Positions 641 to 63,800 of a stretch of 64,000 nucleotides of DNA are shown in pieces (position 1 is the stretch's first letter; each line of letters begins with the position of its first letter). A model generated the notes under the pieces. It searched no databases. It saw nothing but the letters and a program-made list of their open reading frames with translations, and was not told where the DNA came from. Source of the DNA: Bilabrum cf. latius (Eukaryota); contig OZ237750.1 in the NCBI GenBank assembly GCA_965178125.1, positions 248,001-312,000 on the forward strand, in the 5' to 3' direction. Both the position numbers and the translations under genes were made by a program.

Positions 641-1567
641 ATGGTAGAGATTCAAGAACCAGATATCTTTTATATTAACTCATAGGATACTATAACATCT
701 ATTAATACTAATAGACCAGTATCAATACATGAACAGCGTCAAGGTAATATCTTGACAAATTCACAAAACTACTTATTATCACTTGACCGATGGACTCTTA
801 AATGTCGTATTCCTTTATTTGTAGCAAGTAAAGAAGTAAAGAATAGCGATAATTAGTCAATTTATAAGATGTCGTTTGTGAAGAAGAGTGATGGAACTAC
901 TTACACTCGTAATATTGTCTTAACCAAGTCGTTATATTATAGTCTTAAGACCTTATCTAATGAATTTAATAATACTCTTAGTGATTTATGTGGAGATGCT
1001 AGTATTCCAACTGATAGTATAGTATTTGAATATCACGGTAAGACTAAAACTTTTAGTTTCACCCGTTTAGCGGCTTTTACAAGTGCGTGGACTTTAAGTT
1101 TTAACTTTCCTTTATTCTCTATATTTGAGACATTTGAATATGATGATGAAGGTAAAGACATTAAAAGTGATACTTATATAAATCTTTTAGATGGATACAA
1201 TGAATAGAGTGCTTCTACCTTAGATTAGTTTCCTACTATGGAGTATATTCAAATTATTAGTCCATCTCTTCCAATACTTCCAGAATTTACACCATCATAT
1301 AAAAGTACATCTAGTACAGAGATACAAAGTGAAAATATCTTAAGTGATTTCAAGATAGACAATACAACAGGAACAAGTTTTATTAAAATAAACTTTAGTA
1401 GTGGAGGAAATCATAGATGGCAATAGTTCTATAGATCAGCATTTAATAGTTATAGTATAGTACCGTATTTTAGAGATACTTTTGGAAACTTATACGAAAT
1501 ACCCTTTACTTTTGGACAAGGACTTAATATAAAAGCTCTATTTAAAAGTAAAAAGTTAATAACTTAA
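641..1567 (+). CDS. Virophage minor capsid (penton) protein, 308 aa with TAG=Gln
   Basis: Track ORFs 869 and 1238 share one frame joined by TAGs; N-terminal YLLSLDRWTLKCRIPLF and C-terminal YFRDTFGNLYEIPFTFGQGLNIKALF resemble virophage penton ends; directly upstream of the MCP; ends TAA. Confidence 0.75.
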
Positions 1568-1609
1568 AGTTAAAAATAAATAAATATCTTTAGTCTTAAT
1601 ATATTTATA

Positions 1610-3496
1610 ATGTCTGATATGGATAATGTACCTGTAGCAGCACAAAGCAAAGTCGTAGATGACGTCTCAGAACTACCAGTAACTCAAATAGCTGACGAAA
1701 AACTCAACTTTGTGGGTGATAGTCAAGCTATTACTCTCGGAACTACCCTTGGATACTCTTCCAAGTTTCAAAACCACTACGAACCAGATGGTGGTAACTC
1801 TAGCGCAACTAATGCATTTAGAAGTAATTATACTTTCGTAGTGCCATCAAATCAAGGAATGACTGACAGTAATCCCCGTCTAAGAGTTTCATTTGACGTA
1901 TACATCTATGATAGTTAGAACAATGGAGCAGTAGCTCAAACTGATATCGTCAATAAGGTAGCCCCTTCTACATTTATGGTAAATTCAATGATCACAAGTT
2001 CCACAGTTAAAATGGGAGACTTATCTCGTAGTTCATCACCTTATCAATTAGTCAATTTAATAGCTAGAAGTCTTGACCGTGCCACTCTAGCACAAATAAG
2101 TCCTGTCTTTTAGGCTGATAACACTTGGGAATTTAATACTGCCGCAAATGGTCTTGCTAAGTCTGTCCTTCAATGGGGTGTAAATGATGATAGTATTATG
2201 GAAGCTCGCGGTCCTGGTAAGAATTACCGCGCAACACTTGAAAAAGTGGATGCTAATACTCCAATACCTAATAATAATGTAACACCAACTCAAGACTATG
2301 TCAAATTACATATTGAAATCTCTGAAGCACTTCTTGCACGTCCTTTCCAATATATGATGGGTGGTAATGCTAGACCTTTTGTTGATCATCCACAATTAAA
2401 TGTTAATTTACAAATGAGAAATAACTTAATTGATAAGATGTTTAATACTTCAAGTGATTGGAATGGAGACTATGCTTTTGCTTTATCCGATTGCTAGATC
2501 CATTTTGATGTCTTTACTTATAATACTCATCTTAACTTCTTGAAGAAAGTACCTAAACAAATATTCTACAACTCTGTTGACTTTGAACTACATGAAGAGC
2601 CTAAACTTGATAATCCTATCACTACTAAAGGTGTCCATACTTTTAATAATTATCAACTTTAGACTTGCCCTTCTTGGTTTGCTGTGTGCTTAGTTGATTC
2701 TCAATATGGAGAAGCTAGTGGTACACCTCATAGAACACTTGCCATTAACAATATTAAAGTACAACTTAGGTCTTAGGGTTCTATTTTAGGAGAACTTACA
2801 CAAGACGATATCTTTAGACTTAGTGAAAGAAATGGATCAAATAGTGAGTATGCTTCTTTTACTAACTTAGATGTAACTGTAGGAGGTGCTTCTAAAGTAT
2901 ACGGATCTAATGGCTGGCTCTTATTTAGACTTAGTGATTTAAATACTCCTGAAACTATTCAAAGCAACAGTGCTGACCCTATTAGTATTCGTGTTCAAGT
3001 AGCCTATGACGAACCCCCAACCGCTGCTATGTCTCAAGGATATAAAGCTCAATTATTCTGTGCCTATGACAAGATTATCGTGAATACTAGAGGTGCCGCT
3101 ATTGAATGGCGTGAAGATAGTGCTTCTGTTGACCCTGAGAAAGTGGCTAAACCTTCTAATTATACATTTTCTAATATGAACTACTCTAAGAACGTATTAG
3201 GTGGAAGACGTCGTAAAGTGATGCAATTCTTTAAGAGAGCCTTTAACAAAGCTAAAGACTTAGGACGTAAAGTGGTAGACTTTGGAAAGAAAGCTAAAGC
3301 TAAATTTGATAAAGTGAAACCAGCTCTTCGTAAAGCAAGGCAAGCAGTAAGTGAATACTTACCCGATGAAGTGAATGACTTAGCTGAACGTGTTGGAGCA
3401 GGTCTTTTAACTAGTGGTGGAAGTCTTTTGACCAGTGGAGGTAAGAAATTAACTAAGGCTCAACTTATGAAACTTAGAAAGTAGCTCAATATGTGA
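1610..3496 (+). CDS. Virophage major capsid protein, 628 aa with TAG=Gln
   Basis: Track ORFs 1610, 2198 and 3029 share one frame; beta-rich body, then a GG-preceded basic C-terminal tail (LGGRRRK...TSGGSLLTSGGKKLTKAQL) like the protease-cleaved tail of virophage MCPs; ends TGA. Confidence 0.8.
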
Positions 3497-3683
3497 GTCG
3501 TAAATTATTAATTAATATTTAAAAGTTATAAATATTGACTAAATTTAAAAACTCAATACGGGTACGCGCCCAGAATTGCGAAAATATATCTTGAATAGCT
3601 ATAATATTACCGCAATTTCGGGCGTTCATATCTTAAGACTAGTTTAAATATTACGCCATTAAATATCCACTATATATATAGTT

Positions 3684-4106
3684 ATGGCAGCAGTATCACC
3701 GTGTGAAGACTTACTTTATATGGAGTATTCATTCTTATTCTTACCACATAGAGAAGACCCAACACTTAAATCTCAAAAGGTTTACTTAGATGATGAATTT
3801 GAAGGAGACCCAGAAGAAATAGTAATAGATAAAGACTAGATACAAGTAAATAATAGAGGTCATATAAAGACATATGTAAGTGAAGGAGGCTTTACAAAGT
3901 TAAAGGTAGGATAGATAATTGAAGAGATGGAGCAAGAGGTGCGTAATTAGAATGGTATTCATTATGATTGTATTTTTTATCATAAAGTTGAACACGACAC
4001 GAGCACAGATATTTATAAAGTAGTATGGGGGTGGTATCCAGCAGACTTTCCAACAAATGGATGCGACCCTGCTATCTTGTATAAGAAACCCCCTAATATG
4101 GATTAA
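3684..4106 (+). CDS. Hypothetical acidic protein, 140 aa (3 in-frame TAG), cassette 1
   Basis: ATG follows the shared leader; MAAVSPCEDLLYMEY...KKPPNMD, TAA; missed by the ORF track. Confidence 0.7.
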
Positions 4107-4248
4107 TTATTAAAAACTCAATACGGGTACGCGCCCAGAATTGCGGAAATATATCTTGAATAGCTATAATATTACCGCAATTTCGGGCGGTCATATCTAA
4201 AGACTAGTTTAAATATTACGCCGAAAAATATCCACTATATATATAGTA

Positions 4249-4638
4249 ATGTCAGATAAAGTAGATTTAAAAATATCGTTTTCTCAAAGTCTTGTATCAA
4301 GTGTAAACCTTGATTGGGATGGAATAGGTAAGATGTTATGTGGAAAAATCACAAGTAAGATAGAAGGAAATGAGATAGTGTTAAGACAAATAGGTCAACC
4401 GACTCCAAAAGATGGAATGATGGAGTTCTCATATACGACCGACTATAAAGCAAATCAAGTTTTTGAATTACTTAAAGACTTAACTGATGAAAGACAAGAC
4501 GCGATTATGGGATACGTTCAGTGTAAGTTAAGTGATAGCAACAGGAAAAGAAGACCATTAACTGAAGAAGATCACAGACAAATGATTCTGGATGCTATGG
4601 ATAGGAGTGTTAAAGAATATAAAAAACATATGTCATAA
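4249..4638 (+). CDS. Hypothetical protein, 129 aa, cassette 2
   Basis: Track ORF following the shared ~135-bp leader; ends TAA. Confidence 0.75.
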   Translation: MSDKVDLKISFSQSLVSSVNLDWDGIGKMLCGKITSKIEGNEIVLRQIGQPTPKDGMMEFSYTTDYKANQVFELLKDLTDERQDAIMGYVQCKLSDSNRKRRPLTEEDHRQMILDAMDRSVKEYKKHMS

Positions 4639-4941
4639 TTAAGTCTTAATAATAAAGTCTTAATATTAAAGTTATTAATATTAAGTCATATCTATGTAAT
4701 AAAAAAAAATTTCTTTGAGCTAGTAATTATACCGATGGTTTGACTACTTGGCGAAGTCATTCGTAAGTCATTGTTGTAGCGGAGATGCGAATGTCAACCA
4801 TGGACCGCTATCCCTATTAAGTCTTACGACTAAGTCTGCTACAACCACTTACGACTACTTCTACAGTATCCAAACTCCCTTCAAAGACTTGCAAGACGTG
4901 TGCTTTGTCATGAAAATGACTTACAGAACGACTTACGGCGA

Positions 4942-5016
4942 TGTCAGTGGTGGGAATCGAACCCACGACCTTGACTTTGTGAAACAATCACGATATCACT
5001 AGACCAAGACCACAAC
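4942..5016 (-). ncRNA. tRNA-like element (degenerate, positional anticodon CAC) with Pol III A and B boxes
   Basis: Minus strand TGGTCTAGTG (A box) and a perfect T-arm GTGGG-TTCGATT-CCCAC preceded by AGGTC; acceptor and anticodon stems pair poorly. Confidence 0.6.
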
Positions 5017-5191
5017 GCACCAAGAGGTAAAAAATATTATATTCAAATAAATTTAAAAATTCAATACACCTACGCGCCCAGAATTGCGGAAATATATCTT
5101 AAATAGCTATAATATTACCGCAATTTCGGGCGGTCATATCTTAAGACTAGTTTATTACTTTCGCCAAAAAATATCCACTATATATATAGTA

Positions 5192-5542
5192 ATGTCAGAT
5201 AAAGAAGATATCAAAATTGAACTATCTCAAAATTTTATAGATGAATGTCTTGTTAAAGGTGTAGGTGTCGATGATGTAGTCAGTAGTATAGGTAAAAGTA
5301 TTGAGAATCACTTTGATAAATATGTATGGATGAAACCAAAAGACAAAGGTGATGGTTATCGTTAGAATGTCTTTAGTTTTAAATTCGACAATATTATCAA
5401 GAAACTCGAAAGTACATTGGAACAGTTAGAATATGAAGAGCAAGTGAAACACGTCTAGGAGCTGATGTATCGTGTTGAAAGAAGTGAATGTGAAAGGAAG
5501 AAGAGAGAAGAAAAAATTAAAAAGACAAAAAGAGACCACTAA
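5192..5542 (+). CDS. Hypothetical protein, 116 aa (2 in-frame TAG), cassette 3
   Basis: MSDKEDIKIELSQ N-terminus resembles cassette 2 (MSDKVDLKISFSQ); ends TAA. Confidence 0.7.
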
Positions 5543-5604
5543 GTCATTTTATATAAGGTATGTATTATTAAGTCTTATTAAGTTTTTTATTAATAAGTCA
5601 TAAT

Positions 5605-8403
5605 TTAATTTTGTTGTTCTAGTGGATCATTATCCTCATCAACAAATAAAGCGGGGTCCAAGTCAACCTCTATCTCTTCATCGGGTAATTGAACCTCTTC
5701 ATCATCAACAAATATATCTACTTCACGAGTCTTTTTCTTGTTAGACCAGATATATTCCATCTCATCAATAATATCCTAATTAAATTCTACATCATAGTTA
5801 ATTTTCTTTTTCTTACAAGTCATAAATATGTCTTTCCCAAACATTGATTTATATACTTTAAGTATTTCGTAATAGAGACCTTTATCAGTGGATAGGTCAA
5901 CTTTACTTCTTCTTTGGCAGTCATACACTGTCCTATATTCATCTGTTAAGTCTTGATCTAATACTTTCTTTTTGATATTATAATCAAGATTAGTTCTTTT
6001 AAGACCCAAAGTATCAATCATCTTATTAAGTAAGACTAATTTTCTAGAACTAGACTTAGCATTGATAATATCAAACTCGCCTTTATTAATTGCTTTCACA
6101 AGTAAGTGTTTATCATCTTGTCTAAAGAATTTATTGAAATTAAATAAATTAGATAACTTACCTTTATTAATAAAGTACTCTTTGTATTTGTCAATATCAC
6201 CTTCATCTAAGTCTAAGTATTTATTGATCTTCTTGACATTAAGACAATTAATATCAAAATTTTCAAGTTGTTTTTCTTTAATGGTATCTTTGATTTCTTT
6301 ATCCTTACATCTGGTGATCTTAACAGATAAATCATAAGACACGTCATAACCGGTATCAATTAACTACTTGATCATATGTAATTTAGGGTTTGTCTTATAA
6401 CAATCTACCTTGTAAAGATAATTACGATATAGTTTCTTGAATATGATTTTAACTTTGCTCATTTCTTCTTCTACTTTGTCTTCTACTTCTACCTCGTTGA
6501 AGTCGGGATATGTATCACTGACAAATTTAACTAATTCTTCGTAGTCTTTTAAAGAGGTAGCCATAAAAGATTTAACTTGTGAAAGACTTTCATATGTGCT
6601 AGATCGTCCTTTCTAGTAATCAAAAAATATAGTGATATGTGATGGGTTTCTACATCTGTTAAGCTATTGAACCATTTGGGGAGGTGTGATAGTATGACCT
6701 TTGAAATAACCAAAGACTGGTCTAGTCATAGTGCTATCTATCCCGTAAATGACTTTAGGTGAGAAGATAATGATATCAAACATATCCATATCATAGTCTT
6801 TGTCTTCGCTTTCTGCTGTAAGTATTAAGATTTTATTTAATTTCTTATCTTTCTCGTTATCTATAATTTTAAGACTAATTAACTCATTGATTATATCAGC
6901 TTTTGTCTTACTATCACTAGCAAGCATAAATTTCTTGTGTTTCATTAACTCATCTCTAAAAGTCTGTTCGTCATTAACAAATACAGTTTTGGTGCCCTTG
7001 AACCTGTTTCTGTCATTCCTAATATATTGATAATCTAATTTTAATAATTCTAAGAAATATAGAGCATCTTGAGATAAGTCAGCATCTGCTACTATGAACT
7101 ACTTACAAGTGGTAAGAGCACGAATAAGAGTAATGAAACTCATTGGTCGCCTACCATATAAAGTCGTAGAACTTAAACAGTGTTCTAAGATACTATTAAA
7201 CTCATCTAAAAAGACAATATAATCCTTAAAGTTATAATTGCTAAGACTAACAATACTTTCAGGAGTAATAACAATACTATCACCCTATTTGTATTTATGG
7301 TCTTGATAGAATTTAGTTGATTTTGGAAGACTACGCATCTATTGCTTACCTAATAAAATACGACTTACAACTGATAAAAAGCTGTCATCTACTCTATTAA
7401 ATAAATCATTAGCAGCAGTTGTCTTTCCAGAACCAGCCCCCGACTTAACGGCATAGTTGATACCTTTCTTAAAGAATTTAATATAACGACCTTTGTCGTC
7501 AGCAGTCAAATATCTACGGTCAATCTTCTAATTGACTTTCTTGACTACTTTATTCTTGAATATCTTGTATCGATAATATAGGCTAAGTCGTTTCTTTTCA
7601 CTATCTAACTAATTAAAGAACCATTCAACACATTGAAAAGTGGAATTTTCTAATAATCGAGTAAAAATTATCTTGTTCTTAGTCGACTAATAGCTTTCTA
7701 CGTCTTGTTTGCTCCATTCATCAAACATATCATATACCTTATTACCATCTACTGGATTTAAGTATTTAGCGATATAACTTGTAGCTCTACAAACTAGATG
7801 CCAGTTATATGAATTAGAATAATACTCTTTACCTAATTGATATAAGTATTGTTTGTATTCTTCGGGTTTAATCATATAACGGTAGTCTTCAGCTGTAAGT
7901 TGTGGTGAATAGATATTTTGTAGTATGAACATCTTGACGTCAGTTGGTATTCTTTTCACGGATGTCTTTTGTATTAGTTCGTATTTCTTACCGTTGATAG
8001 AGCTAGGAGGACACATGATAAAGCTATCATTTGTGATCACATCTATATGTTCTTTTCTATTTACTGACCTCTTACTAAACTCTTCTTCATACTTAAAATA
8101 CAAATGATATCCATTGGGAGACTTGACAGTGTAAGTATTCATCTCTTGAATAAACTTATCAACACTACCATATTCCGCAATAAACTTACCATTTTGAAAT
8201 TCAGTTTTATTTTTCTCTTTTTCACAATCTAAGTCAAGGACAAAGAAACCTGCACGTCTTCCAGTTAGTAATCCAACATTAAGATTTGACTTTCTGGTGA
8301 TAAGTTTAGTAGATTCCAAATTCTACCAAGACTTAATAAGTGGTTGTTTAGAGTTGTGAGCTATTGAGAAATAAACAGGGTTAGATATGTGTTCGGTCGT
8401 CAT
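5605..8403 (-). CDS. Bifunctional primase-polymerase fused to SF2 origin-binding-protein-like helicase, 932 aa with TAG=Gln
   Basis: Four track ORFs in one frame; prim-pol motifs KQPLIKSW, NVGLLTG..FFVLDLD, KSPNGYHLYF; PriCT-like FDEWSK; helicase motifs KSGAGSGKTT, VFLDEFNS, DADLS, QQLNRCR; ends TAA. Confidence 0.8.
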
Positions 8404-8433
8404 TCTAGTATATACTATACTAAAGATAATTTT

Positions 8434-8646
8434 TTAAGTCATTTTCTAGACGCACTATTTTGGCTTAAAGGATTGAGATGGATTTTCGCGCACAACTAGA
8501 GTATTTTTAAATTTTTCAATTTCTGCTGGGGATTTCCCGATTAGTAAATAACTTATAGTCTCTTGAAACTCTATTGGTAAGTCTTGTAATTGATGTATTG
8601 GTTTATTGATAACTTGATTATTTGATTTGGTATCTATTAAATCCAT
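8434..8646 (-). CDS. Small hypothetical protein, 70 aa
   Basis: Track ORF extended through TAGs to TAA; AT-rich CTTAA...TATAGTA leader. Confidence 0.45.
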
Positions 8647-8678
8647 TATTAATAATACTATAATAATAGAATATATTT

Positions 8679-8888
8679 TTAAGTCTTATTTAATCCTTCT
8701 GTATCTGGTTCATCCTTAACCTGTTTTCTCTTCTAATAGTACCCCTTCCATTTCTCTTGATTCTTTTGGTAATATTTCTATTTAGCTTTTTTAATAGCTT
8801 CTTTCTTTTTGGTCTCCTATTCCTTGAGTCTTTGATAATCTTCCATAATGTCTTGAACCTATTTTAATACATCTTTAATATCTGGCAT
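8679..8888 (-). CDS. Small basic helical viral protein, 69 aa (4 TAG)
   Basis: MPDIKDVLKQVQD...KKAKQKYYQKNQEKWKGYYQKRK; KYYxKNxEK-type motif is common in small proteins of large DNA viruses. Confidence 0.6.
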
Positions 8889-10352: not shown

Positions 10353-10453
10353 TGTTATCCGCCAAAATGTGGAGTTATGATAACTCTATTTCTACTATAT
10401 AGTAGAAATAGAGTTTACTTATATAAAAACTACACACATTTTGGCGGATAACA
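10353..10453. repeat. Nested palindrome at the terminus of element 1
   Basis: 19-bp perfect inverted repeat TGTTATCCGCCAAAATGTG (10353-10371 / 10435-10453) enclosing a 34-bp perfect palindrome at 10382-10415. Confidence 0.95.
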
Positions 10454-23646: not shown

Positions 23647-23698
<52 letters not shown>

Positions 23699-53635: not shown

Positions 53636-53908
53636 ATGACACTCAGTCATTCAGAAAGAAAAGAACAGGATAAGCTGTATGCCCGTGAATACTACCGGAA
53701 AAACAAGGAAAAACTTGGCGAGTAGATACAATGCTCGTGTGGTGGCGTATATAAGAAGTACAATAAATCACATCATTGTAGAACAAAAAAACACCTTGAT
53801 TGGCTTAAAAAAGAGGAAGACACAAAAAGGGAACAAATTAACATAATGGATGAACTTGATAGTTTGCGACAGGAAATTGAGAAGCTTAAGGAAAAACAGA
53901 CTATTTAA
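53636..53908 (+). CDS. Small C2H2 zinc-finger protein, 90 aa
   Basis: EYYRKNKEK..CSCGG..KSHHCRTKKH, coiled-coil tail; ends TAA. Confidence 0.75.
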
Positions 53909-53909
53909 T

Positions 53910-55751
53910 TCAATCTTTTCTAAAAAGTTTCTTCTTACTGTGAATAATTTGACATTCACCTGATTGCTCCAACTTCATACCCCCAAGGTTCGTTGACAAC
54001 TTTAGAGGTAATTCTTTCTCACTAATGAAACCATCCGTATTGACATAGTGAATGTTTTCAAGATATGGCTCAATCATTTTGGACAATTTACTTCGTCCAA
54101 GTCCAGTCAGAAAGGGACCTATTCTTGCGTAGGCTGTTTTGTAATCGTACTCTTCGTCATAGAGTGTACCCGATACAAGTCGTCCAGATGCTTTAGGATA
54201 CGCGTTCTTTAATTGTCTAAAATTCATACAATCACCATCTCGGAGTGTTTTTGTGATTGTGTTTTTCTAACATAGAGAACCCCAGATGTTGTTCAGTATC
54301 TCTTTCGCACACTTCAATCCCTATTTTTTATAACCGTACAATCGCTCAATCATCGTTTTGAACAGTCCATTTGCCTTCACCCTTGTTGTCTCATCGTAAA
54401 GTAAAGCGTTGGCTTCTCCGTCTTCAATAAGTGACACCTAAGCGCCCGTCTCAATCGCTCGGTTGATGTCATATTGAGTATAATAATTGTTTTTTCTTTT
54501 TTGTACCAATTTAGAATTGATATTTTCAATATGTACCCTAAAAATGCCGTACGGATAGAAACCACTTGAAGGTACTTCAAATTTTACGAACTTACCCCTT
54601 CTAACCGGAAATGTAAATGTACCCTTCATAATACTTGGATAAAATGAGTTAATATCGTACTGGTATGCGTTTTTTAATGTAGTATTCTTGTTTGCCCAAT
54701 TCAATCCACCACCCGAGGCTTTAGAAATCCATAGTGCTTCAACTTGGTCAATCGGGTCGGCAGGGTAAAGTTTGGAAAACTTACTGAAATACGACTTTAC
54801 AAATAGGGATGTTCTAAACATAAATCGTGATAAATCCATATATCCACCCGTCTCCTTTGATAAAGCCCTTACATTTTTCATCCGTTCTTCGTGTTTTGTT
54901 CGTAGTTCTTCCTTGGATTTAACGTCAAGGATGAAATTCTCCTTAAAAACCGATGTAATGCCTTCTGATTGATATTCACGGTCTCCATCAAATAGTAAAT
55001 AAGAATTCTCGGATTGATACAAGCGGGTTATTAGTCTACACGGTTCTTTAGACGGCGGTGTAAATAATTCTTTCTAACTAATGGGGGGAACATACTTGTA
55101 ATGCCCATTTGTTAATGAAACAGTTAGAAGACGGTCAAAATGAGTTTTTCCAGATGTGTATTCAAAGTCGCCTACAACATGAATGCGTAATTCAAGTTCG
55201 TCTTCTATCTCTGGTATTCTTCTGTAATCGATTGGGTCATCACGCCCAATTTTCAAGAGTTCTTTGAGGTCGGACTTCGACAATCTTTTAATAGTAGTTT
55301 TCCATTTGCCTTTTGCGTTCTTTACATTTACCTTACGACCAACTGAAAAAGGAAAAGCCTATTTTATAGCGTTATATAAACAATCGTTATGTTCGTCAGC
55401 ACCGCCTTCTGGTTCTGGCTTTCTAATAAGCAGTAGTTCAAAAGAATTCAATTTTCTATATTCGTCGTCATCGTCGTCTTCGTAACCCGCCCATAAACTA
55501 TCTTGATTTTCTAAATCATCTGTAGTAATCCAAGTGCTTCTTGTTCGCCAACCTGTATCTTGAAAATTGATATTCACCTTAAATTTAAAGTCATCAAACG
55601 GATTTTCACCACCATCGTCGTAATCACGAATAAATTCCAAGACATCTTTTACGGTGATAAGGTCCTCGCTCTCAAATCGCATACTCCATATTGGTTTCCC
55701 ATTAAGACGCAATTTGGTTCTTTGGGGTTCCATAAAATCGATTTCGGGCAT
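53910..55751 (-). CDS. polB: Protein-primed-type family B DNA polymerase, 613 aa with TAG=Gln
   Basis: YQYDINSFYPS, AKEILNNIWG, YVNTDGF; four track ORFs in one frame; ends TGA. Confidence 0.9.
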
Positions 55752-55808
55752 TCTATAGTATCTAATATATTATAGAATACGATAATTATTCTTAAGGTAT
55801 GAACTCAC

Positions 55809-57470
55809 TCACTTCTCAATTTTACAGAGGAATTTAGAAAGTTTCCCTTTTTTGTTCTTTGGTGGGTTCTCTTTTATCCATTTTTGAATAGCGATGCTAT
55901 TCTCAACACTCAGCTGTTTCTGGATTTTCTTATGGACTTTTTCCGTCGGTGTAATCTCCTTTTCTAATTCCAACTATTCAATCGTTTCCTACTGCTATGC
56001 GACTTGTTTCTGTAGTTCTCTTATCTACTCTCGAAGAACATCTACCTCGGATTTTGCTTTTTCCATCTCAGCAGAATGACGAAGTGCCTAAAATTTAGAT
56101 TGGAAGCCTTTTAGTAAGTCTGCGTGTTTCACATTAAATTCTTGTTTTCTCTATTTGTTCATCGTTGAATGAACACCCACCTCTGACAATAGTGTTTTAA
56201 TCATAGGTGTACCAAGGTTCTTCACTCTACCGTTCAGTTCCTACTTTAGATAATTGCGGAATTCCAAGACTGTCATTTTAAAATCTCTGCCTTCGTCCAG
56301 CCACTCTTCTTTTAGAATTTTTAAAACCGGATGTGCGCCATCAAGAATTCCTTTGTAAAAATTCTTTGATTTTGGTGCGAATTGTCCTGTAAAGTCTGGT
56401 GATGTATCATAGATTTCAACCAATAACATATAAAATGCCTTAGCCACTTCTGGATTTTCTGTAAAACGTTTTAGTGTTGTAAAGTATTCTTTGTCTCCTT
56501 TCTTAGATGTATTCACATCCAAAACACAATATCTACGGATTTCCTCGGTGATTTTGATTGGACTATCATTCGTATCAATAATTAAATTGAATGTATTGGG
56601 ACGACTTTCGGATTTGACAAACTTCTCATTACATGAAAAGTGTTTTTCCGTAATAAGATTTCTTAGCGTTGCCTACATGGCGTCCCAAATAGTTTGCGAG
56701 GCTTTTGGAATTTCATTAAAATTGACTAATAGTTTCCCGTCCAGAATTGAGTTGAAGGCGTCGGGTTGAAGCATCTTGTGTGTAAGCGTCTATAGTGTAA
56801 GGGTATATCCGAGTAGTTTTCTCATAAGGAAGGTAATAATCATCGATTTACCAGTTCCTTGTGGAGATTTCAAATATAGTGCTGTACCCAACTTCTTTCC
56901 GCCCACAATAACGTGAGCCAACCATTTCATCACAAAATCACACTATTCTTTGTCTTCTGAAGTCCACACCTTCTGGATATGTTCATAAATCATAGTCGCG
57001 CCTGCTTTTGCGTCTTCGGATAAATCCTCTATGTTTCCACAGTTTTCCCGTGTAAGTATAGGTGAACCCATAACGTTAATTGTTTGATTGTCGTAATCCA
57101 CGGTAGGTGAATTGAATTTTCTTACAATCGTAAATACGTCGGTATTCTCATTTAAGAACCAGTCTCGTGCTGACCAAGTCTTTACTCTTTTGTTGCCCAC
57201 AATCGCGTATATACAGTGTCCCCCAATCAGGTAATTTTCAGTAATATTTTTATTCGTAAGGAACTACCAGACTGGTTTCTGGGGTTCGTCATCACTTATG
57301 TTATTCCGATTTAATTCAGATGCTATTAGAAAATACACCCCGCCACCTTGCTCGTGGGTGCGGTAGAAGTATTGTTTAAGGTATTGAATACATTCCTCTT
57401 GTTTTCCGGCATTACATAGGTCCATAAGGCTTTTTGACGAATACGCTTTAGTCGGCAGAGTGAATGACAT
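55809..57470 (-). CDS. Superfamily 3 (D5-like) helicase, 553 aa with TAG=Gln
   Basis: LYLKSPQGTGKS, LLVNFNE, FNLIIDTN, IRRY; C-terminal coiled coil; ends TGA. Confidence 0.85.
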
Positions 57471-57480
57471 TTTTGTTGTT

Positions 57481-57514
57481 GTACTATAGAATACGAAAAT
57501 AATCCTTAAGGTAC
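57481..57514 (-). promoter_or_regulatory. Conserved upstream motif TACCTTAAG-N9-CGTA(T/G)TCTATA
   Basis: Also at ~55772-55800 and ~58899-58933, each just upstream of an ATG. Confidence 0.7.
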
Positions 57515-57527
57515 GATACGGGGCATC

Positions 57528-58583
57528 TCAATTTTCTATATCCCACTCCAAAATTAAATTAGGAGCAATTTCTTGGATTTTATTCTTTGGTTCCCACGTC
57601 CAATGTTCTGGTTCTGGAAAATCTTTCCATTCTATTTGATATTCTGTTTCGTTCTCGGATTTTATCTTTTTTGGGATAAAAATTGTCTGAGCATCTCGAT
57701 TATTGTCCTCATTATCAAAGTCGATAATCTGTAATTCCTCTTTTGGATAAGCCACTAAATCATCCTAATCCACAACATATAAGGGTGGTTGTCCGGGTCT
57801 TAATAACACTTTTGTAACCGTTTTGATTTCTGGATTATAGCGTAAATCGGAAGCACGAAAATTTCCGGATAATTTTTGCTGTAAATTTGTAGCCTTTCTG
57901 GGTTCTTCTAAAGGTATTCTTACGCGTGTCCCTTCTTCCAATACATTACAAGCGTCTCCTTTGCACTACGTAAAGTCGAAGTGTTCTGGGGGTAAAGGTG
58001 GTTCTTCCATATATTTTTCCAGTTGATATTCATTATAGTTTTCGATGATGTTTGGGAGCATATCCACCCATTCTACGCTTTCATTACCTGTATTTAACTC
58101 ATTTACGTTCTGTAGGGTAAATATGGCTTTTCCCAACGTTTTATTTAAGTTTTCCACTAATGCCTGTTGACGATGGCGACCTGGTTTATTTCTTCGTACA
58201 AATACGTCGGTCTCTTCTAAATATCTTTGTAAAGCATTGAATTCTTTTCCATTATCTATTTCCAAACGGTACTGCGGTTTCTGGACATTTCCACGATTGA
58301 AAATCTTTTTTGATGCCTTTAATACTTCGTTCTAACGCTTGGTTTTGAGCGGTTCAGCATCGGCCTACTTTGTGTGTAAATCAATAGCGGTTAATGCGTA
58401 TTTATAATTCTTGTCGTGGGGTAATGATAATAAATCCATTTGTACCACTTGGTGAGGTTCTGGTACATTTACGTGGGGTCTATTTACTCCTTTGGGTCGT
58501 TTTGGTCGTTTCATTAAATTTACAATACGACTGTTGGGATAAATGTTTAGGGATTGTAATATTCTTTCAAAGGCGCTACTCAT
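57528..58583 (-). CDS. rve retroviral-type integrase with C-terminal chromodomain, 351 aa with TAG=Gln
   Basis: VQMDLL, LTAID, IDNGKEF, QALVENLNKTL (DDE); YQIEWKDF..WTWEP; same architecture as the mavirus integrase. Confidence 0.92.
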
Positions 58584-58648
58584 TTGCTATATAGTTGTAT
58601 CATTCTCCTTACTTTTGTAAAGTAGGGAAAATAATTCTTGGGAAAAAA

Positions 58649-58888
58649 TCATTTGGTTTTGGTACTTTCGTGCCATTCAACTACAATTTGACTTAAATCT
58701 GTAGCCTCCTCAAAGTCAGCAAGCAGGTCATCGTCATCATCATAATTAATCCAAATAATAGTCTTTGTAAATTCAAGGTACTTTTTGGCCATATCGTATG
58801 CTTCTCGTGTTGTAATAAACGGGACTGATTTAAGACATTCTTTGGTCGCCAAGATGTAATTCTCGAGTTCCTTTTGTGATTTTGCCAT
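58649..58888 (-). CDS. Hypothetical protein, 79 aa
   Basis: MAKSQKELENY..., preceded by the same leader motif as the helicase gene. Confidence 0.6.
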   Translation of the reverse strand: MAKSQKELENYILATKECLKSVPFITTREAYDMAKKYLEFTKTIIWINYDDDDDLLADFEEATDLSQIVVEWHESTKTK

Positions 58889-59365
58889 TTTTGTGGTTGT
58901 ACTATAGACTACGTAAGTTATGCTTAAGGTACGACATTTCCACTTTAGGCCATCAATTTTTGCGTTTTTAATTAGGGAGTTGGAAAACATTTATAATTTG
59001 TTTTTTATTTTCCTTTTGATTTTTATGGTGGCATCATAGGAGTTACAACATTTAATTTTAATCTTTGAAAAAGATATCAAAAGAGCGGAGGGCAAAGCCC
59101 GAGCATCTTGGGAACTTAATTTATTCTTTCTAAGTCTCTTATAATTGACCTGTAAAATTGACAAGTTTTTTGGGGACTTTTCGAAAGGGACTTAAAATAC
59201 GTTTTCGTTTTCCTTTTAATTTTAATGGTGGCATCATTGGAATTATAACATTTAATTTTAATTGGAAAATATATTTATTCTTTCTAAGTCTCTTATAATT
59301 GACCTGTCAAATCTCTCAATTTTTGGGGGACTTTTCCAAAGGGACTTAAAATACAATTATAATTT

Positions 59366-59957
59366 GTTTTCGTTTTCCTTATAATGTATCATCTCTTGGG
59401 TAATCGGTTTGGTTGCTTCGGAGAACAATTTAGTCGCTTGGGAAATCCTTGGGAAATCCTTGGGAAATCCTTGGGAAATCCTTGGGAAATCCTTGGTCGG
59501 TTCATCGGTCGGTTCATCGGTTTGTCGCTTGGTGTAACTACCTTGTTCTCTTGATAAAATACCTTGTTCTCTTGGGAAAATCCTCGGTTGGTCTCTTGGT
59601 CTCTTGGGAATTCATCCTTTCGTTCCTACAGCAAACACAGAGAGGTTTTTGACACTTGGTTAATTTCTTCATTTTTTCCTACTTTACTAAAACATCTCTG
59701 TCTTTGCTGTTAGAGTTTATAAGGGGGATAAAGATTAGAATTCTTCAATTTACCCCTACTTCGTAGGAGTAAATTTTATATCTGAAAATGGGTACATAGA
59801 GGGGTTCTATAGGGGTTCTTGGGGAACCCCTTGGGAAATCATCTAGGTTTATAGGGAAAACACTTGAGTTGCTAAATATGCCTTTAAAGGAGGGGCGAGC
59901 GTAGCGTAGCCCTCGTCCTCAACGCTTGGTGTACCTACCACCACCGTTGTCCCCCCC
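59366..59957 (-). repeat. Right terminal inverted repeat of element 2
   Basis: Reverse complement of 36884-37480; shuffled shared blocks extend to ~58980. Confidence 0.95.
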
Positions 59958-60620: not shown

Positions 60621-60826
60621 GTCATGTGAATTGCGATCTGAGAGTGATGGATCATTCTACTGGCTGGATCCTTTGTATTCTACGAATGTACATAAGCTAA
60701 AGCAATAGCAAAAGCAAAAGCAAGCCAAGCGAATCGCGCCCTCGCATCCCCAGATCCGGATAGAACATCATCCAAGCTCCAAGGGAACTGACACATGAAG
60801 CACCAAATTGCTTCTCTCCGCCATGC

Positions 60827-63800
60827 TCAGGTCTACGGACCGCTGGCGCCACCTTGCGAGCCACTGGCATCGCCAAGACGTCGTCCTGGCGAGCTGCCGG
60901 GCCCACGGCGCCCCTCGATTGCAACCCGAGCACCGAGCACCGCAGCGACAGTATCATCGAGAGACCGCGCAACGCGACCGCCCCCGCTGCTGCGATCAGC
61001 CCCCCACTCCCAGTCGCTGCCGAAGCTCGTTGTACGGGGCGCCAGGCCAGCACCACCACCTCCAGCGCCAGGGCCCGCGCTCCCAGTTCCGCGCCGAACG
61101 GTGCTGGCACCCATCGGGCTCCTCGCCAGGGTGCGCGGCGCCGCGCCTGCGGAACCAGGAAGTCCTCGGAAGGCGGCGCTGTTGCGACCCTCCGTAGCAG
61201 CCCGCCGCATGTCGCCCAGCCGGATTCGAACCCGCGGGACTGACCTGGGCGATGTGGGAGACGAACCAGAGTCAGGCACAGGCCCCGACCCCTGGCCCTG
61301 TGCCTGGCCCAAATCAGCCCCTGGAATGGGCACGGGCATCGACCCGCCCTCTGCCCCAGCGAGGGGCGGGTTGCGACGAGGCAGCATCGTCCTCGTGACG
61401 CGAAGGCGAGGCCGCTTATCGGCTCCACCAGCAGCAGCAGACGGCGATCCCATGCCGGGGGCAGGGGCGGTCTAGCCAGCATTCGGCGATGCCAGAGGCG
61501 TCGCGCGCTGGCGCTGCTGGGCCAGCGAGGGCATTTCATCGAGTGCTGGGTCGGTCTCGGGGTCATAGATGGCCACCTCATCCGACCCATCTTCTTCTTC
61601 ACCGATCGAGCCGAGGCCTCGTTGACGAGTGGCTGGGCTGTGGGCAGCGGCGCCGAGGCCGACAGAATGCGCGGAATCGCCCGACAGCGACGTCTGATGA
61701 ACTCCGGCTGGCGGCTCTGTCGTCTGCCCAGCGATCGATGCTCCCCCCCTCGATGCCGCCCGGTGGAGACTGACACGGGGCGCAGCGGCAAGAGGCCGCG
61801 GCTGGGTGCGTCCGGGACTTGCAATGGCACCGATTCCCTGACTGCCGTTCCCTGGGCCCCCATGGGAGGGGTGCTCGAGGTCGAAGCGGGAGACGCTTCC
61901 AGAGGCCATTGACACTGACCCGCCCTGGTACGTCCCACTCGTCACATTCTGCACCGGGTTCATTGTCTCGTGCCGCACCATGCCTGGTGGCTGGTAGCCT
62001 GCCCGACCATCTGCTGCTGCTGCTGCTGCTGCTGCACCGCCAACATCGTCGTGCACGTTGCCGGCAGCGGCCTCGATGCGGGCCGCGCGCGCCTGCGCCC
62101 ACGCCGACCGTCCATCGCCTCGTCCCCCCGTTGTTCCCTGATCCTGGCCAGGAACCGCGCCATCGAAAGCACCGTAGCCCTGGCTACCCCTGTCCGTAGA
62201 CCGTTCTTCCTTCTGTCCGCTGGATGCAGCCAGCCCGGCAGTAGGACCTGCCTTGCGGAGTGCCGCGTCGATCAATGGGTCATCGGACCGGGGACCCAGA
62301 GCCTGCGTCGCGTCCGCCTCTCCACTCTTTGAATTGCCCCCTGATGTCGCAATCTCGGACTCATCGGCCGGGCGAGTGTACTTGTACGCGAAGAATCCCG
62401 CCCCGCCCACCAGGGCCACCGCCATCACAGACCCCAGCACAATCGTGCCGATCAGTCCGTCAGACAGCCGATCATCCTTGGGGTCACCCCCGAACTGCTT
62501 CTTAGGATCGTCCACGATCTCCAGGTCAGACACGGGCGCGCACTGACCCTGCACTGTGCCAGACTGGCAAGCACCCACGATGCGAGCTGCGATGGCAGAC
62601 AGCTCGGTAGCCGTGCCCCCAGCCACCTCGATCCGGAAGTTCACCTTCAGCTCCTGCTGCTGCTGCTGCTGCACCTGCAGCGCACGGCCGGACACCAGCC
62701 CCATCCACGCCATGGCGCCCCTCGCAGCCGACCCCAGGCCCTCTTGCACCCAGGCCCCAGATGTACCCAGTGCTCGCCTCCTCCTTCTCGTGTTGTTCCC
62801 CGACACCAGCTCCACTGACGTGATGAACACCTGCGACTCGGACACCCCCGCTGCCTGGGCCACGTTCTCCCTGAAGCCGCGACGCTCCTCAGAGCCAAAG
62901 TCCTCCACTGACGTCACGTTGATCGACACCGAGTACTGGATGAACGGGTCTGACTCAGCGCTGGGAGCCGCGCACTCAGCCACATTGCACGCGCGATCCT
63001 CCGATACACGAGTGCAGAAGTCCAGACCAGCCGATGGAGACGCGCCCGTGGCGTTGCGACGGCGAGTCTGCACGCCCCCGCCACACGGCACATCGCATGC
63101 GTCGTACGCCGACCACGCAGAGTACTGGCACGTCACCAGCTGGCACCGCACCGGGTCCTCGGACCAGCTGCCGCCCAGCTGGCACGACGTCACCAGTGGG
63201 TGGCCCTCTGGCTGCGGCAGGTGCTCGGCATCGCACGAGTACTGGCATGATGGCAGCCCATCCTCGTTGTAGGCGCACATGATGGAGCCGTTCACCGGCC
63301 GGGACAGGGCGGGGCATCCGGAAGCCACGGACACGAACTGCGCCCCTCTCGTGGCATACCTCACTTGCCCGTTCGGAGCCACTGACAGAGGGGGGGCGGG
63401 CTGCTTTGGATCGGGAACGGGGGTATTTGGGTGTGGCCTTCTCCACACGGGCTGCCCCGACAGCAGGTCCAGTGCGATTGCCTCCTGCTGCGTGTTCAGC
63501 AGCACCACCTGCCCGTTGCTCACCGGCGTGGACGCAGTGGACACCAAGTTGCTCTAACCGCCCTCCGTCTGGCCCACCACCTCCACCCAACGGGGCACCA
63601 AGGGGGCTTCCGAGCTGGGCCCCGACTGAAGCGCGAACTGCCGCCCGATCGAGTCGCCCACCAGGATTGTCTGCTCCATGCTGCCAGGGAACAAGGCCAG
63701 GCCGGGCGCCCCCTGCACGGACACGGACGCGCCCGTGATGTCCTCGTGCGGAACCTCGAACAGATCGCGCGGCGCCGGCGCGTGCTCCCCGAGATCGTAG

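What the first reader, a model, noticed from the sequence alone, without database searches (positions are those of the whole stretch)
641..63556. UAG reassigned to Gln (UAA and UGA remain stops) across host, two virophages and a retrotransposon
Seen: almost every gene is broken only by in-frame TAG and ends in TAA or TGA. Host paralogs swap CAG and TAG at two independent sites: GG(TAG)SN at 19465, 26354 and 63554 versus GG(CAG)SN at ~33897 in copy 3; and GY(TAG)PP at 32190 versus GY(CAG)PP in copies 2 and 4. Known: a nuclear code that splits UAG from UAA (NCBI table 15 type, reported for Iotanema spirale) is rare in eukaryotes. Inference: this host uses that code and its whole mobilome has adopted it. 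Standard-code annotation would mistake these elements for decayed pseudogenes.
Basis: partly seen in the sequence, partly recalled or inferred. Interest (0 to 1): 0.95.

Follow-up and report, generated by a model that had tools for sequence, protein, structure and literature searches.

The report
UAG-as-glutamine protist with recoded virophages
This stretch of a GC-rich protist genome, together with two integrated virophages and a retrotransposon inside it, uses the stop codon UAG as an ordinary amino-acid codon (most likely glutamine), a rare code type that had not turned up for virophages in the literature searched.

Summary
In 20 ORFs (13,601 codons) there are 135 in-frame TAG, 0 TAA and 0 TGA. 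Only TAG read-through opens the AT-rich blocks. The opened frames are full-length virophage genes, a retrotransposon RT/RNase H frame and host genes.

Artefact, editing and pseudogene rivals fail. Spliced transcript contigs from two separate studies carry both TAGs of a host MyTH4-FERM gene unchanged. The element repeats are 100% identical.

Gln is the best-supported meaning but is not proven. Against verified standard-code virophages, TAG columns behave like CAA/CAG columns: Q is best, E is 1.5 bits behind, bootstrap 63% against 29%. The protease's conserved Gln (47 of 48 homologues) is TAG. Amino-acid budgets fit Gln in three of four genes.

TAA and TGA terminate where the family C-termini fall. 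The decoding tRNA and eRF1 are not in the window.

The code type is already published for Iotanema and two ciliates, so this is a new member of a known kind. What looks new is the recoded virophages and retrotransposon.

Unexplained: TAG is enriched in the last five codons, V2 prefers TGA stops, and one TAG sits where a retrotransposon stop is expected.

The parts
1..10400 (.). V1: partial AT-rich virophage/polinton-like element (runs off the window start). Holds a penton-like ORF 641-1567 (+, 5 TAG), a major capsid protein 1610-3496 (+, 6 TAG), small ORFs at 3684-4106, 4249-4638 and 5192-5542, and a primase-polymerase/helicase 5605-8403 (-, 11 TAG).
   Evidence: GC 0.21-0.39 up to about 10.4 kb. 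Pfam MCP_V20_C 3.2e-07 and Prim-Pol 8.9e-14. The penton-like ORF hits 9 and the MCP 3 standard-code virophage ORFs. TAG counts.
14086..16724 (-). Host MyTH4-RA/FERM gene. Three exons seen in transcripts: 16724-16600, 16225-14960, 14770-14086. In-frame TAGs at 16143-16141 and 15747-15745.
   Evidence: Pfam MyTH4 2.7e-25, FERM_M 2.7e-16, RA_2 1.2e-09; myosin VII/MyTH4 structures 7.8e-10. Spliced contigs X5 record 9 and X6 record 15 show 0 other letters. The spliced frame has 0 TAA/TGA and 2 TAG; the other frames have 15 and 18 stops.
17581..22734 (+). Host paralog copy 1 (TSP1-domain surface-type protein, 1717 codons, 4 TAG, including GG-TAG-SN at 19465).
   Evidence: Pfam TSP_1 1.5e-07.
23024..27361 (-). 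Host paralog copy 2 (1445 codons, 4 TAG, including 26354).
   Evidence: Pfam TSP_1 9.9e-08.
31242..34904 (-). Host paralog copy 3 (1220 codons, 3 TAG). It has CAG at 33897 where the other three copies have TAG, and TAG at 32190 where copies 2 and 4 have CAG.
60827..63679 (-). Host paralog copy 4 (950 codons, 3 TAG, including 63554).
36884..59957 (.). V2: complete mavirus-like endogenous virophage bounded by terminal inverted repeats (outer arms 36884-37351 and 59490-59957) and split by the retrotransposon.
   Evidence: The 468-nt arms are 100% complementary, with further arms at 90-98%. GC 0.37-0.47.
38246..38782 (-). V2 cysteine protease (178 aa, 5 TAG). The conserved Gln nine residues before the catalytic Cys is the TAG at 38410-38408.
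   Evidence: 48 standard-code homologues: His64 48/48, Asp86 46/48, Gln125 47/48, Cys134 48/48. Codon verified. Pfam gave no family.
38973..39875 (+). V2 packaging ATPase (300 aa, 9 TAG).
   Evidence: Pfam AAA_22 9.7e-06, just under its cut-off. 2982 relatives at E<=0.001 in the exhaustive search.
42054..43163 (+). V2 penton / minor capsid protein (369 aa, 16 TAG against 2 CAG and 6 CAA).
   Evidence: Pfam V18-19 2.5e-09; Sputnik minor virion protein 1.2e-12; codon counts.
43269..45035 (+). V2 major capsid protein (588 aa, 15 TAG).
   Evidence: Pfam MCP_V20_C 1.6e-27 and Sputnik_MCP_1st 8.1e-25; Sputnik V20 2.7e-31 and mavirus MCP 3.2e-08.
53910..58676 (-). V2 replication and integration block: protein-primed-type PolB 53910-55751 (5 TAG), DUF5906/VapE-like helicase 55809-57470 (11 TAG), rve integrase with chromodomain 57528-58676 (5 TAG).
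   Evidence: Pfam DNA_pol_B_2 2.3e-06, DUF5906 2.4e-15, rve 6.8e-10, Chromo 5.8e-06.
46753..53412 (+). GC-rich tyrosine-recombinase (Ngaro/DIRS-like) retrotransposon inserted in V2. Split direct repeats: A at 46753-46928 and 53081-53256; B at 52951-53080 and 53283-53412. Long gag-RT-RNase H frame 46957-52716 (11 TAG) and recombinase ORF 51915-52910 (4 TAG).
   Evidence: Both repeat pairs are 100% identical. Pfam RVT_3 3.2e-05 and Phage_integrase 6.2e-05, 23.3 bits, below its 27.1 cut-off. TAG places. The layout matches the description in PMC8547959 (passages read).

Best explanation
The window is nuclear DNA of a GC-rich (60-68% GC) unicellular eukaryote whose cytoplasmic translation reads UAG as an amino acid, most likely glutamine. 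UAA and UGA remain the terminators. Everything translated in that cytoplasm shares the code:
- Host genes: TAG is 4-7% of TAG+CAG+CAA codons.
- A tyrosine-recombinase retrotransposon: 15%.
- Two integrated virophages: 27% and 37%. In V2, TAG outnumbers CAG by 84 to 38.

Shown: UAG is in frame in real genes, stands in mature spliced mRNA, and is not selected against. UAA and UGA are excluded from frames and close them at the expected places.

Inferred: decoding is by a tRNA with anticodon CUA charged with Gln, plus a release factor that no longer recognises UAG. Neither gene lies in the window. The heavy TAG use of the AT-rich virophages is read as long adaptation to this code, with CAG drifting to TAG under AT pressure. 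That would make them untranslatable in a standard-code host.
For: 1. Frames: 135 in-frame TAG against 0 TAA and 0 TGA in 13,601 codons. Only TAG read-through opens the AT-rich blocks.
2. The opened frames are full-length genes: both Sputnik MCP domains, penton, ATPase, PolB, helicase, rve integrase, Prim-Pol, MyTH4, FERM.
3. Host mRNA: contigs of X5 and X6 (two studies) are spliced at canonical GT..AG introns. They cover exon 14960-16225, which holds both TAGs, with 0 differing letters. The DNA-like run X2 keeps the introns. The spliced frame is open except for the 2 TAGs.
4. Not decay: the V2 terminal repeats (468 nt) and both retrotransposon repeat pairs are 100% identical.
5. Meaning, tested against ORFs from 80 IMG/VR contigs that are open under the standard code:
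   - 62 of 71 TAG columns were usable.
   - Homologue Q/E content is 0.120/0.104 at TAG columns, 0.131/0.077 at CAA/CAG columns and 0.060/0.196 at GAA/GAG columns.
   - Best call Q, then E -1.5 bits, then K -6.6 bits. Bootstrap: Q 1258, E 582, K 108 of 2000.
   - Family-consensus-Gln columns: TAG 5/62, CAR 7/87, GAR 4/140. Consensus-Glu columns: TAG 3/62, CAR 3/87, GAR 20/140.
6. The protease Gln conserved in 47 of 48 homologues is TAG in the window.
7. Amino-acid budgets: TAG=Gln moves penton, MCP and protease from z -2.6/-1.1/-1.4 to +1.5/+1.7/+1.1. TAG=Glu gives +4.8 and +4.2 in the capsid genes.
8. Stops: window ORF ends against projected family C-termini are 178/178, 300/304, 369/377, 588/588 and 308/311.
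Against: 1. Gln against Glu is not settled.
   - With 150 diverse ATPase homologues the log-odds are Q 5.8 against E 5.4 bits. The pooled TAG columns hold more E (22%) than Q (6%).
   - The per-gene calls are E for the ATPase and the helicase, and D for the MCP.
   - The hold-out control miscalls CAA and CAG themselves (52 of 58 codons right). This method is weak for Gln at this divergence.
   - Some strongly conserved TAG columns are Leu (9/9, 40/48), Tyr (44/66), Glu (68/79) or Asp.
   - The ATPase Gln budget overshoots (z +3.7).
2. One host paralog column pairs TAG with TAC (Tyr).
3. The near-identical database proteins with Q at TAG columns (P0001, P0010, P0020) are read-through gene calls and so not independent. 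The status of P0002, P0008, P0009, P0011 and P0012 is unknown, because their DNA could not be fetched.
4. Possible residual stop function. TAG lies in the last five codons of 5 of 15 genes against 1.23 expected. A TAG at 51994 sits where the RT/RNase H frame would be expected to stop.
5. No tRNA, no eRF1 and no whole genome were available. Host evidence rests on one gene with transcripts plus four paralogs.
Confidence: 0.8

Rival explanations
1. UAG is a sense codon but stands for glutamate (or another residue such as Lys, Leu or Tyr) rather than glutamine.
For: - ATPase family: Q 5.8 against E 5.4 bits. Pooled TAG columns hold E 22% and Q 6%.
- ATPase column 211 is Glu in 68 of 79 homologues and MCP column 446 is Glu in 38 of 62.
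- Bootstrap gives E in 582 of 2000 resamples.
- UAG=Glu and UAG=Leu codes exist elsewhere (for the abstracts; for UAG=Leu).
Against: - Over all 62 usable columns Q is best.
- TAG matches CAA/CAG and not GAA/GAG in its rate at consensus-Gln and consensus-Glu columns.
- The protease Gln conserved in 47 of 48 homologues is TAG.
- TAG=Glu, Lys, Asp or Leu pushes penton and MCP composition beyond every homologue, with z from +3.8 to +6.3.
Confidence: 0.12
2. UAG has two meanings: Gln inside genes, but still a terminator (or a leaky one) at some gene ends.
For: - TAG is in the last five codons in 5 of 15 independent genes against 1.23 expected, P=0.004, and in none of the first five.
- In the retrotransposon, the first stop-like codon after RNase H is the TAG at 51994. 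The 239 codons after it overlap the recombinase ORF and have position-2 GC of 0.67 against 0.46 in the body.
Against: - The same pattern is expected from relic TAG stops that are now read through to a nearby back-up stop.
- 48 of 79 ATPase alignments continue 3 or more residues past the TAG at codon 296.
- No gene in the window needs a TAG stop to match its family length.
- The sample is small.
Confidence: 0.2
3. The host uses the standard code, and only the viruses are recoded. They would rely on a suppressor tRNA supplied by a virus, as in TAG-recoded bacteriophages.
For: TAG density is about 7 times higher in V2 than in host genes. TAG-recoded phages in standard-code hosts are documented (search listing and abstracts only).
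Against: - A host MyTH4-FERM gene carries two in-frame TAGs in spliced mRNA.
- Four host paralogs carry 14 in-frame TAGs in 5,332 codons, with 0 TAA/TGA in frame against 191 in their other frames.
- No tRNA gene lies in either virophage.
Confidence: 0.02
4. The TAGs are not translated: decayed pseudogenes, assembly errors, or sites corrected by RNA editing.
For: Standard-code reading gives only fragments. C-to-T change of CAG is the commonest kind of mutation.
Against: - Decay would also create TAA and TGA: 0 of either in 13,601 codons.
- The element repeats are 100% identical.
- The same letters stand in contigs of runs from three studies, and in spliced transcripts.
- Contigs can hide rare variants, so low-level editing is not excluded.
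Confidence: 0.01

Closest known systems
Nuclear code of Iotanema spirale (Fornicata): UAG=Gln, with UAA and UGA as stops (PMC5304391, abstract read)
   Same: UAG alone is reassigned, most likely to Gln. UAA is kept as a terminator.
   Different: In Iotanema UAA is the primary terminator. Here 15 of the 20 ORFs, and 8 of 10 V2 genes, end in TGA. The host here is GC-rich and carries virophages and retrotransposons that share the code. Its taxon was not determined.
Hartmannula sinica and Trochilia petrani (phyllopharyngean ciliates): UAG putatively Gln (PMC11687900, abstract read)
   Same: A UAG-only reassignment inferred from genome data.
   Different: Those are ciliates in which UAA is the firmly preferred stop. 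Nothing here was tested for ciliate affinity.
Cafeteria burkhardae endogenous mavirus-like elements (EMALEs) with Ngaro retrotransposons (PMC8547959, passages read)
   Same: AT-rich virophage genomes with terminal inverted repeats sit in a GC-rich host, and one is interrupted by a roughly 6-7 kb GC-rich tyrosine-recombinase retrotransposon with split direct repeats. The gene set includes MCP, penton, ATPase, protease, rve integrase, PolB and helicase.
   Different: That paper has 0 occurrences of 'genetic code', 'UAG' or 'TAG' and describes its ORFs as mostly intact. Here every virophage gene but one (V2 41511-42002) needs TAG read-through. Direct sequence relationship to EMALEs was not tested, because none was reachable with the tools.
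TAG-recoded bacteriophages ('code 15') (search listing and abstracts only)
   Same: TAG is read as Gln in viral genes, and TAG-rich viral genes look broken under the standard code.
   Different: Those phages infect standard-code hosts and bring their own suppressor tRNA. Here the host genes themselves carry in-frame TAG, and no tRNA lies in the elements.
Rhizarian from Lygus hesperus: UAG=Leu (PMC5304391, abstract read)
   Same: UAG is decoupled from UAA.
   Different: Leu ranks outside the top eight residues in the column test. It gives composition z of +3.9 and +4.0 in the capsid genes.

Membership tests
NCBI table 15-type nuclear code (UAG=Gln; UAA and UGA stop) | UAG occurs in frame inside conserved protein-coding genes | tested here: met
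   135 in-frame TAG in 20 ORFs with Pfam-supported domains on both sides of the TAGs.
NCBI table 15-type nuclear code (UAG=Gln; UAA and UGA stop) | UAG is present in mature mRNA (not removed by splicing or editing) | tested here: met
   Spliced contigs of two studies cover both TAGs of the MyTH4-FERM gene with 0 differences. These are contigs only, so minor edited fractions are not excluded.
NCBI table 15-type nuclear code (UAG=Gln; UAA and UGA stop) | UAG positions correspond to Gln in homologues | tested here: inconclusive
   Q is best but only 1.5 bits over E, with bootstrap 63% against 29%. The conserved-column rates equal those of CAA/CAG. The protease Gln conserved in 47 of 48 homologues is TAG. 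The ATPase family alone is tied between Q and E.
NCBI table 15-type nuclear code (UAG=Gln; UAA and UGA stop) | UAA and UGA still terminate | tested here: met
   0 in-frame TAA/TGA. ORF ends fall within 0-8 residues of projected family C-termini in 5 of 5 genes tested.
NCBI table 15-type nuclear code (UAG=Gln; UAA and UGA stop) | A tRNA-Gln with anticodon CUA, and an eRF1 that does not recognise UAG | not testable with these tools
   No tRNA and no Rfam family in the window. No whole genome is held.
Virophage (mavirus-like, integrated) | Double jelly-roll MCP, penton, packaging ATPase and cysteine protease morphogenesis module | tested here: met
   V2: Pfam and PDB matches for MCP and penton; ATPase with 2982 relatives; protease His/Asp/Gln/Cys columns. 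V1: MCP and a penton-like ORF only, and the element is cut by the window start.
Virophage (mavirus-like, integrated) | rve integrase, protein-primed-type PolB and terminal inverted repeats | tested here: met
   V2: rve 6.8e-10, DNA_pol_B_2 2.3e-06; 468-nt arms at 100%. V1 could not be tested because it is incomplete.
Ngaro/DIRS tyrosine-recombinase retrotransposon | RT and RNase H plus a tyrosine recombinase instead of an integrase | tested here: inconclusive
   The RNase H-type RVT_3 match passes its cut-off (24.3 against 21.6 bits). The recombinase match is below its cut-off (23.3 against 27.1 bits). No RT-domain Pfam hit was reported, and no relatives were found.
Ngaro/DIRS tyrosine-recombinase retrotransposon | Split direct repeats (A1 ... 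B1-A2-B2) rather than LTRs | tested here: met
   A at 46753-46928 and 53081-53256; B at 52951-53080 and 53283-53412; both 100% identical.
Virus-borne suppressor system (phage code-15 style) | A suppressor tRNA carried by the element, in a standard-code host | tested here: not met
   No tRNA in the window. Host genes carry in-frame TAG in mRNA.

The most novel reading that the evidence does not exclude
The window catches a stop-codon reassignment with its footprints still visible, in a three-layer parasite system. Virophages that now use TAG for a quarter to a third of their Gln codons have evolved for a long time inside a UAG=Gln lineage. Their helper giant virus must therefore be compatible with that code, and the code would act as a translation firewall that ties this virus-virophage-retrotransposon community to its host lineage. 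The excess of TAG just before the final stop, the TAG at the expected end of the retrotransposon's RT/RNase H frame, and V2's shift to TGA terminators would be either relics of former TAG stops or signs that termination at UAG and UAA is still context-dependent in this organism.
Probability: 0.3. Interest if true: 0.88.

Novelty: new member of a known kind. Interest (0 to 1): 0.76.

Why it matters
UAG-only reassignments are among the rarest nuclear code changes. The abstracts read here name Iotanema (Gln), a rhizarian (Leu) and a few phyllopharyngean ciliates. They show that the ribosome can tell UAG from UAA.

A further lineage would be useful for three reasons.
1. It adds an independent case for asking how eRF1 and tRNA change.
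2. It is a natural test of whether a code change isolates a host from foreign viruses. These virophages carry up to 16 TAGs per gene, so they could not be expressed in a standard-code cell. Conversely, standard-code relatives that end 15% of their long ORFs in TAG would be read through here.
3. It is a practical warning. Virus- and transposon-mining pipelines run under the standard code would score these apparently young, intact elements as decayed.

None of the six searches aimed at this question turned up a TAG-recoded virophage or retrotransposon. The 2019 global virophage survey mentions only an ochre tRNA as a hint of host recoding (passage read).

Tried and rejected
- **Whole genome:** none is held, so no genome-wide codon inference, tRNA or eRF1 search was possible.
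- **DNA of the closest database homologues:** could not be fetched.
  - Alignment A1 had no conserved stretch.
  - P0002, P0009 and P0012 gave no locus in viral contigs.
  - P0009 and the retrotransposon RT/RNase H region gave none in metagenome contigs.
  - So I cannot say whether P0002, P0008, P0009, P0011 and P0012 are standard-code proteins. Their Q counts at TAG columns (7/15, 7/16, 6/16, 3/11, 3/11) were not used as evidence.
- **'phages' collection:** no match to the MCP.
- **Solved structures:** Sputnik, mavirus and MyTH4 entries are too distant, or do not cover the TAG positions. The FERM exon had no PDB match.
- **Halocafeteria preprint:** no mention of a variant code, and it states that Ngaro elements are absent there, so it does not describe this locus.
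- **RNA runs:** no RNA holder is listed on record. X5 and X6 are treated as transcript contigs only because they are spliced.
- **Run X8:** held 0.22 of the sampled words and was not interpreted.
- **TAG at 19465 in the X5/X6 contigs:** not listed as different, but 84 rows of that table were not shown, so this is not claimed.
- **Host taxon:** I did not pursue it, so the host taxon is undetermined.
- **WW motifs in the MyTH4 gene:** recognised by eye only. Pfam reported no WW domain at E<=0.01.
- **Supplementary files of the papers:** not consulted. They might list code predictions that bear on priority.

Full report
**What the window is.** It alternates between GC-rich DNA (0.60-0.68 GC) and AT-rich blocks (0.31-0.47 GC) at about 1-10.4 kb, 36.9-46.7 kb and 53.4-60 kb. 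A GC-rich 6.7-kb piece lies between the last two. No tRNA gene and no Rfam family lie in it. No whole genome is held for it.

**The observation.**
- Under the standard code, none of the 35 ATG-ORFs of 200 aa or more lies in the AT-rich blocks.
- With TAG read through there are 52 such ORFs, including frames of 932, 628, 613, 588 and 553 aa in those blocks.
- Reading through TAA or TGA instead does not do this. The longest frames in the three blocks are 942/594/619 codons with TAG sense, 239/272/232 with TAA sense and 235/235/211 with TGA sense.
- In 20 ORFs (13,601 codons) there are 135 in-frame TAG, 0 TAA and 0 TGA. The other two frames of the same ORFs hold 447 TAA and 582 TGA.
- In the host paralogs, in-frame TAG (14 in 5,332 codons) is about as common as out of frame (4 and 12). 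TGA is 0 in frame against 78 and 106 out of frame.

**What the frames encode.**
- *V2 (36884-59957)* is a complete mavirus-like virophage bounded by terminal inverted repeats whose outer 468 nt are 100% complementary. It encodes:
  - a cysteine protease and a packaging ATPase;
  - a penton (Sputnik V18/19 family) and a major capsid protein with both Sputnik MCP domains;
  - a B-family polymerase, a DUF5906 helicase and an rve integrase with a chromodomain.
- *V1 (1 to about 10.4 kb)* is a second, different element cut by the window start. It has a V20-type capsid protein, a penton-like ORF and a primase-polymerase/helicase.
- *The retrotransposon.* V2 is interrupted at 46753-53412 by a GC-rich element.
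  - It has split direct repeats A1...B1-A2-B2, both pairs 100% identical.
  - It has an RNase H-type match and a weak tyrosine-recombinase match.
  - The insertion cuts the V2 ORF 45734-46876.
  - The layout matches what Hackl et al. describe for Cafeteria burkhardae EMALEs and Ngaro elements (PMC8547959, passages read). That paper never mentions a variant code, and its ORFs are described as mostly intact.
- *Host genes:* four paralogs of a TSP1-domain protein and a MyTH4-RA/FERM gene on the minus strand.

**Rivals that fail.**
- *Artefact, editing or introns.*
  - Contigs of runs X5 and X6, from two studies other than the best DNA holder, join 14770 to 14960. X5 also joins 16225 to 16600. Both are canonical GT..AG introns of the minus-strand gene.
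  - The DNA-like run X2 runs through the same introns.
  - The spliced contigs cover exon 14960-16225 with 0 differing letters.
  - Both TAGs (16143-16141 and 15747-15745) lie in that exon. The spliced frame has 0 TAA/TGA, against 15 and 18 stops in the other two frames.
  - So UAG stands in mature mRNA of a real host gene, upstream of its MyTH4 and FERM domains.
- *Decay.* It would also create TAA and TGA, and none is seen. The perfect repeats indicate young insertions.
- *A virus-supplied suppressor in a standard-code host.* This is contradicted by the host genes and by the lack of any tRNA in the elements.

1. *Paralog swaps do not decide it.* Of 8 aligned columns with TAG, 3 pair it with CAG, one with TAC, and others with GAA, GTC, CCG or GAG.
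2. *Near-identical database proteins are not independent.* P0001, P0010 and P0020 carry Q at TAG columns, but they are evidently read-through gene calls of the same kind of DNA. I set them aside, along with the 51-62% identical proteins whose DNA I could not fetch.
3. *ATPase family alone is tied.* An exhaustive search gave 150 diverse ATPase homologues.
   - A Codetta-like log-odds over the 9 TAG columns gives Q 5.8 and E 5.4 bits.
   - The control called 22 of 23 ordinary codons correctly.
   - The pooled columns hold more E than Q.
4. *Broader test against verified standard-code DNA.*
   - I fetched 80 IMG/VR virophage contigs. They are open under the standard code and have no in-frame stop in any ATPase, MCP, penton or protease match: 0 of 80, 56, 50 and 49 loci.
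   - I aligned their ORFs to the window's genes with X at TAG. Eight of the 14 genes found homologues, and 62 of 71 TAG columns were usable.
   - Classified against the substitution pattern of each amino acid in the same alignments, TAG is called Q, with E 1.5 bits and K 6.6 bits behind.
   - Bootstrap over columns gives Q 63%, E 29%, K 5%.
   - The hold-out control gets 52 of 58 codons right but fails on CAA and CAG themselves. The method is intrinsically weak for Gln.
5. *Conserved columns are cleaner.* TAG falls on family-consensus-Gln columns at the same rate as CAA/CAG (5/62 against 7/87; GAA/GAG 4/140). It falls on consensus-Glu columns at the CAA/CAG rate too (3/62 and 3/87 against 20/140).
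6. *A functional site.* In the protease, His64 (48/48), Asp86 (46/48) and Cys134 (48/48) are conserved. The Gln nine residues before the Cys (47/48) is TAG in the window. Naming this signature as adenain/Ulp1-like is from recall.
7. *Amino-acid budgets.*
   - Without TAG, the penton, MCP and protease are Gln-poor relative to homologues (z -2.6, -1.1, -1.4).
   - With TAG=Gln they are normal (+1.5, +1.7, +1.1).
   - TAG=Glu, Lys, Asp or Leu takes both capsid proteins beyond every homologue.
   - The ATPase is the exception, with Gln +3.7 and Glu +2.9.

Taken together I put Gln at about 0.8, Glu at about 0.1 and others at about 0.1 or less.

**Terminators.** ORF ends set by TAA or TGA coincide with projected family C-termini: 178/178, 300/304, 369/377, 588/588 and 308/311. 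UAA and UGA therefore still terminate.

**Codon usage.** TAG as a share of TAG+CAG+CAA, and per 100 codons:
- Host paralogs: 4.3% (0.26).
- MyTH4 exons: 7.4% (0.31).
- Retrotransposon: 14.7% (0.70).
- V1: 27.5% (1.18).
- V2: 37.2% (2.04).

In V2, TAG (84) outnumbers CAG (38). I read this as long residence of these AT-rich viruses in a UAG=Gln lineage. This is inference.

**Unexplained.**
- TAG lies in the last five codons of 5 of 15 independent genes, against 1.23 expected (P=0.004), and in none of the first five.
- In the retrotransposon, the first stop-like codon after the RNase H domain is the TAG at 51994, just past the recombinase ORF's ATG. The following 239 codons lose the coding signature.
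- V2 ends 8 of 10 genes in TGA, although GC-matched standard-code relatives use TGA for only 10% of their TAA+TGA stops. For V1 and V2 together it is 9 of 16, P=8e-6; V1 alone is 1 of 6.
- These may be relic TAG stops with nearby back-up stops, or signs of context-dependent termination. The data here cannot tell which.

**Comparison with what is known.**
- UAG=Gln with UAA kept as a stop is published for Iotanema spirale (PMC5304391, abstract) and for two phyllopharyngean ciliates (PMC11687900, abstract). The code type is therefore not new.
- Searches aimed at virophages, bicosoecids, stramenopiles and flagellates found no report of it in a virophage-bearing flagellate, and no TAG-recoded virophage or retrotransposon. 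A search for recent genome-wide code screens in protists listed none either.
- The 2019 global virophage survey only notes an ochre tRNA as a hint of host recoding (PMC6905037, passage).
- The library is limited and supplements were closed, so priority cannot be excluded. The host's taxon was not determined.

**Verdict.** This is a new member of a known kind of code change, in an unusually informative setting.

Noticed in passing
window 38246-58676 (V2 genes) and 641-8403 (V1 genes): V2 ends 8 of its 10 native genes in TGA and V1 ends 1 of 6. GC-matched standard-code virophage contigs use TAA 425, TAG 74, TGA 49. A shift to TGA in 36-43% GC genes may mean that UAA is a weaker stop in this host, or simply that V2 follows the host's preference.
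   Followed up: partly
last five codons of ORFs 1610-3496, 23024-27361, 60827-63679, 38973-39875, 42054-43163, 43269-45035: TAG sits 1-4 codons before the final TAA/TGA in 5 of 15 independent genes, against 1.23 expected, P=0.004. This could be a relic of former TAG stops or residual stop function.
   Followed up: partly
window 51994-52716: The retrotransposon's RT/RNase H frame runs 239 codons past a TAG at 51994 and overlaps the recombinase ORF (ATG at 51915) by about 800 nt. That tail has position-2 GC of 0.67 against 0.46 in the body.
   Followed up: partly
window 45734-46876 and 46753: The V2 ORF of 380 aa runs into repeat A of the retrotransposon, so its 3' end is replaced by the insertion. 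Its continuation beyond 53412 was not sought.
   Followed up: no
window 17581-34904 and 60827-63679; also 30119-30814 and 60298-60798: There are four copies of the TSP1-domain gene. Copies 2, 3 and 4 share 87-91% identical codons and copy 1 shares 57-71%. Copies 1 and 2 are head to head, which points to recent segmental duplication. The flanking ORFs at 30119-30814 and 60298-60798 translate to closely similar proteins, so the flank seems duplicated as well, right beside the V2 insertion.
   Followed up: partly
proteins P0001, P0010, P0020 (public protein collection): Database proteins 100%, 92% and 84% identical to V2's MCP, helicase and ATPase carry Q at 12 of 12, 10 of 11 and 3 of 3 of the TAG columns they cover. 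Some public gene calls on this kind of DNA were therefore already made with TAG read through. P0020 also diverges in a frameshift-like way.
   Followed up: partly
window 14000-23000 in runs X1-X7: The same host stretch (0.69-0.91 of sampled words) is held by runs filed under three different coded organism labels from three studies. The organism may travel as a co-cultured or contaminating flagellate. Origins were deliberately not traced.
   Followed up: no
window 16629-16631 and 16141-16143: Two WW-like motifs, recognised by eye and not reported by Pfam, lie in the MyTH4-FERM gene. The first reads D-Q-S-T-T-W-E with CAG and the second D-TAG-S-T-Q-W-E. This is a small internal Gln/TAG correspondence.
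   Followed up: yes
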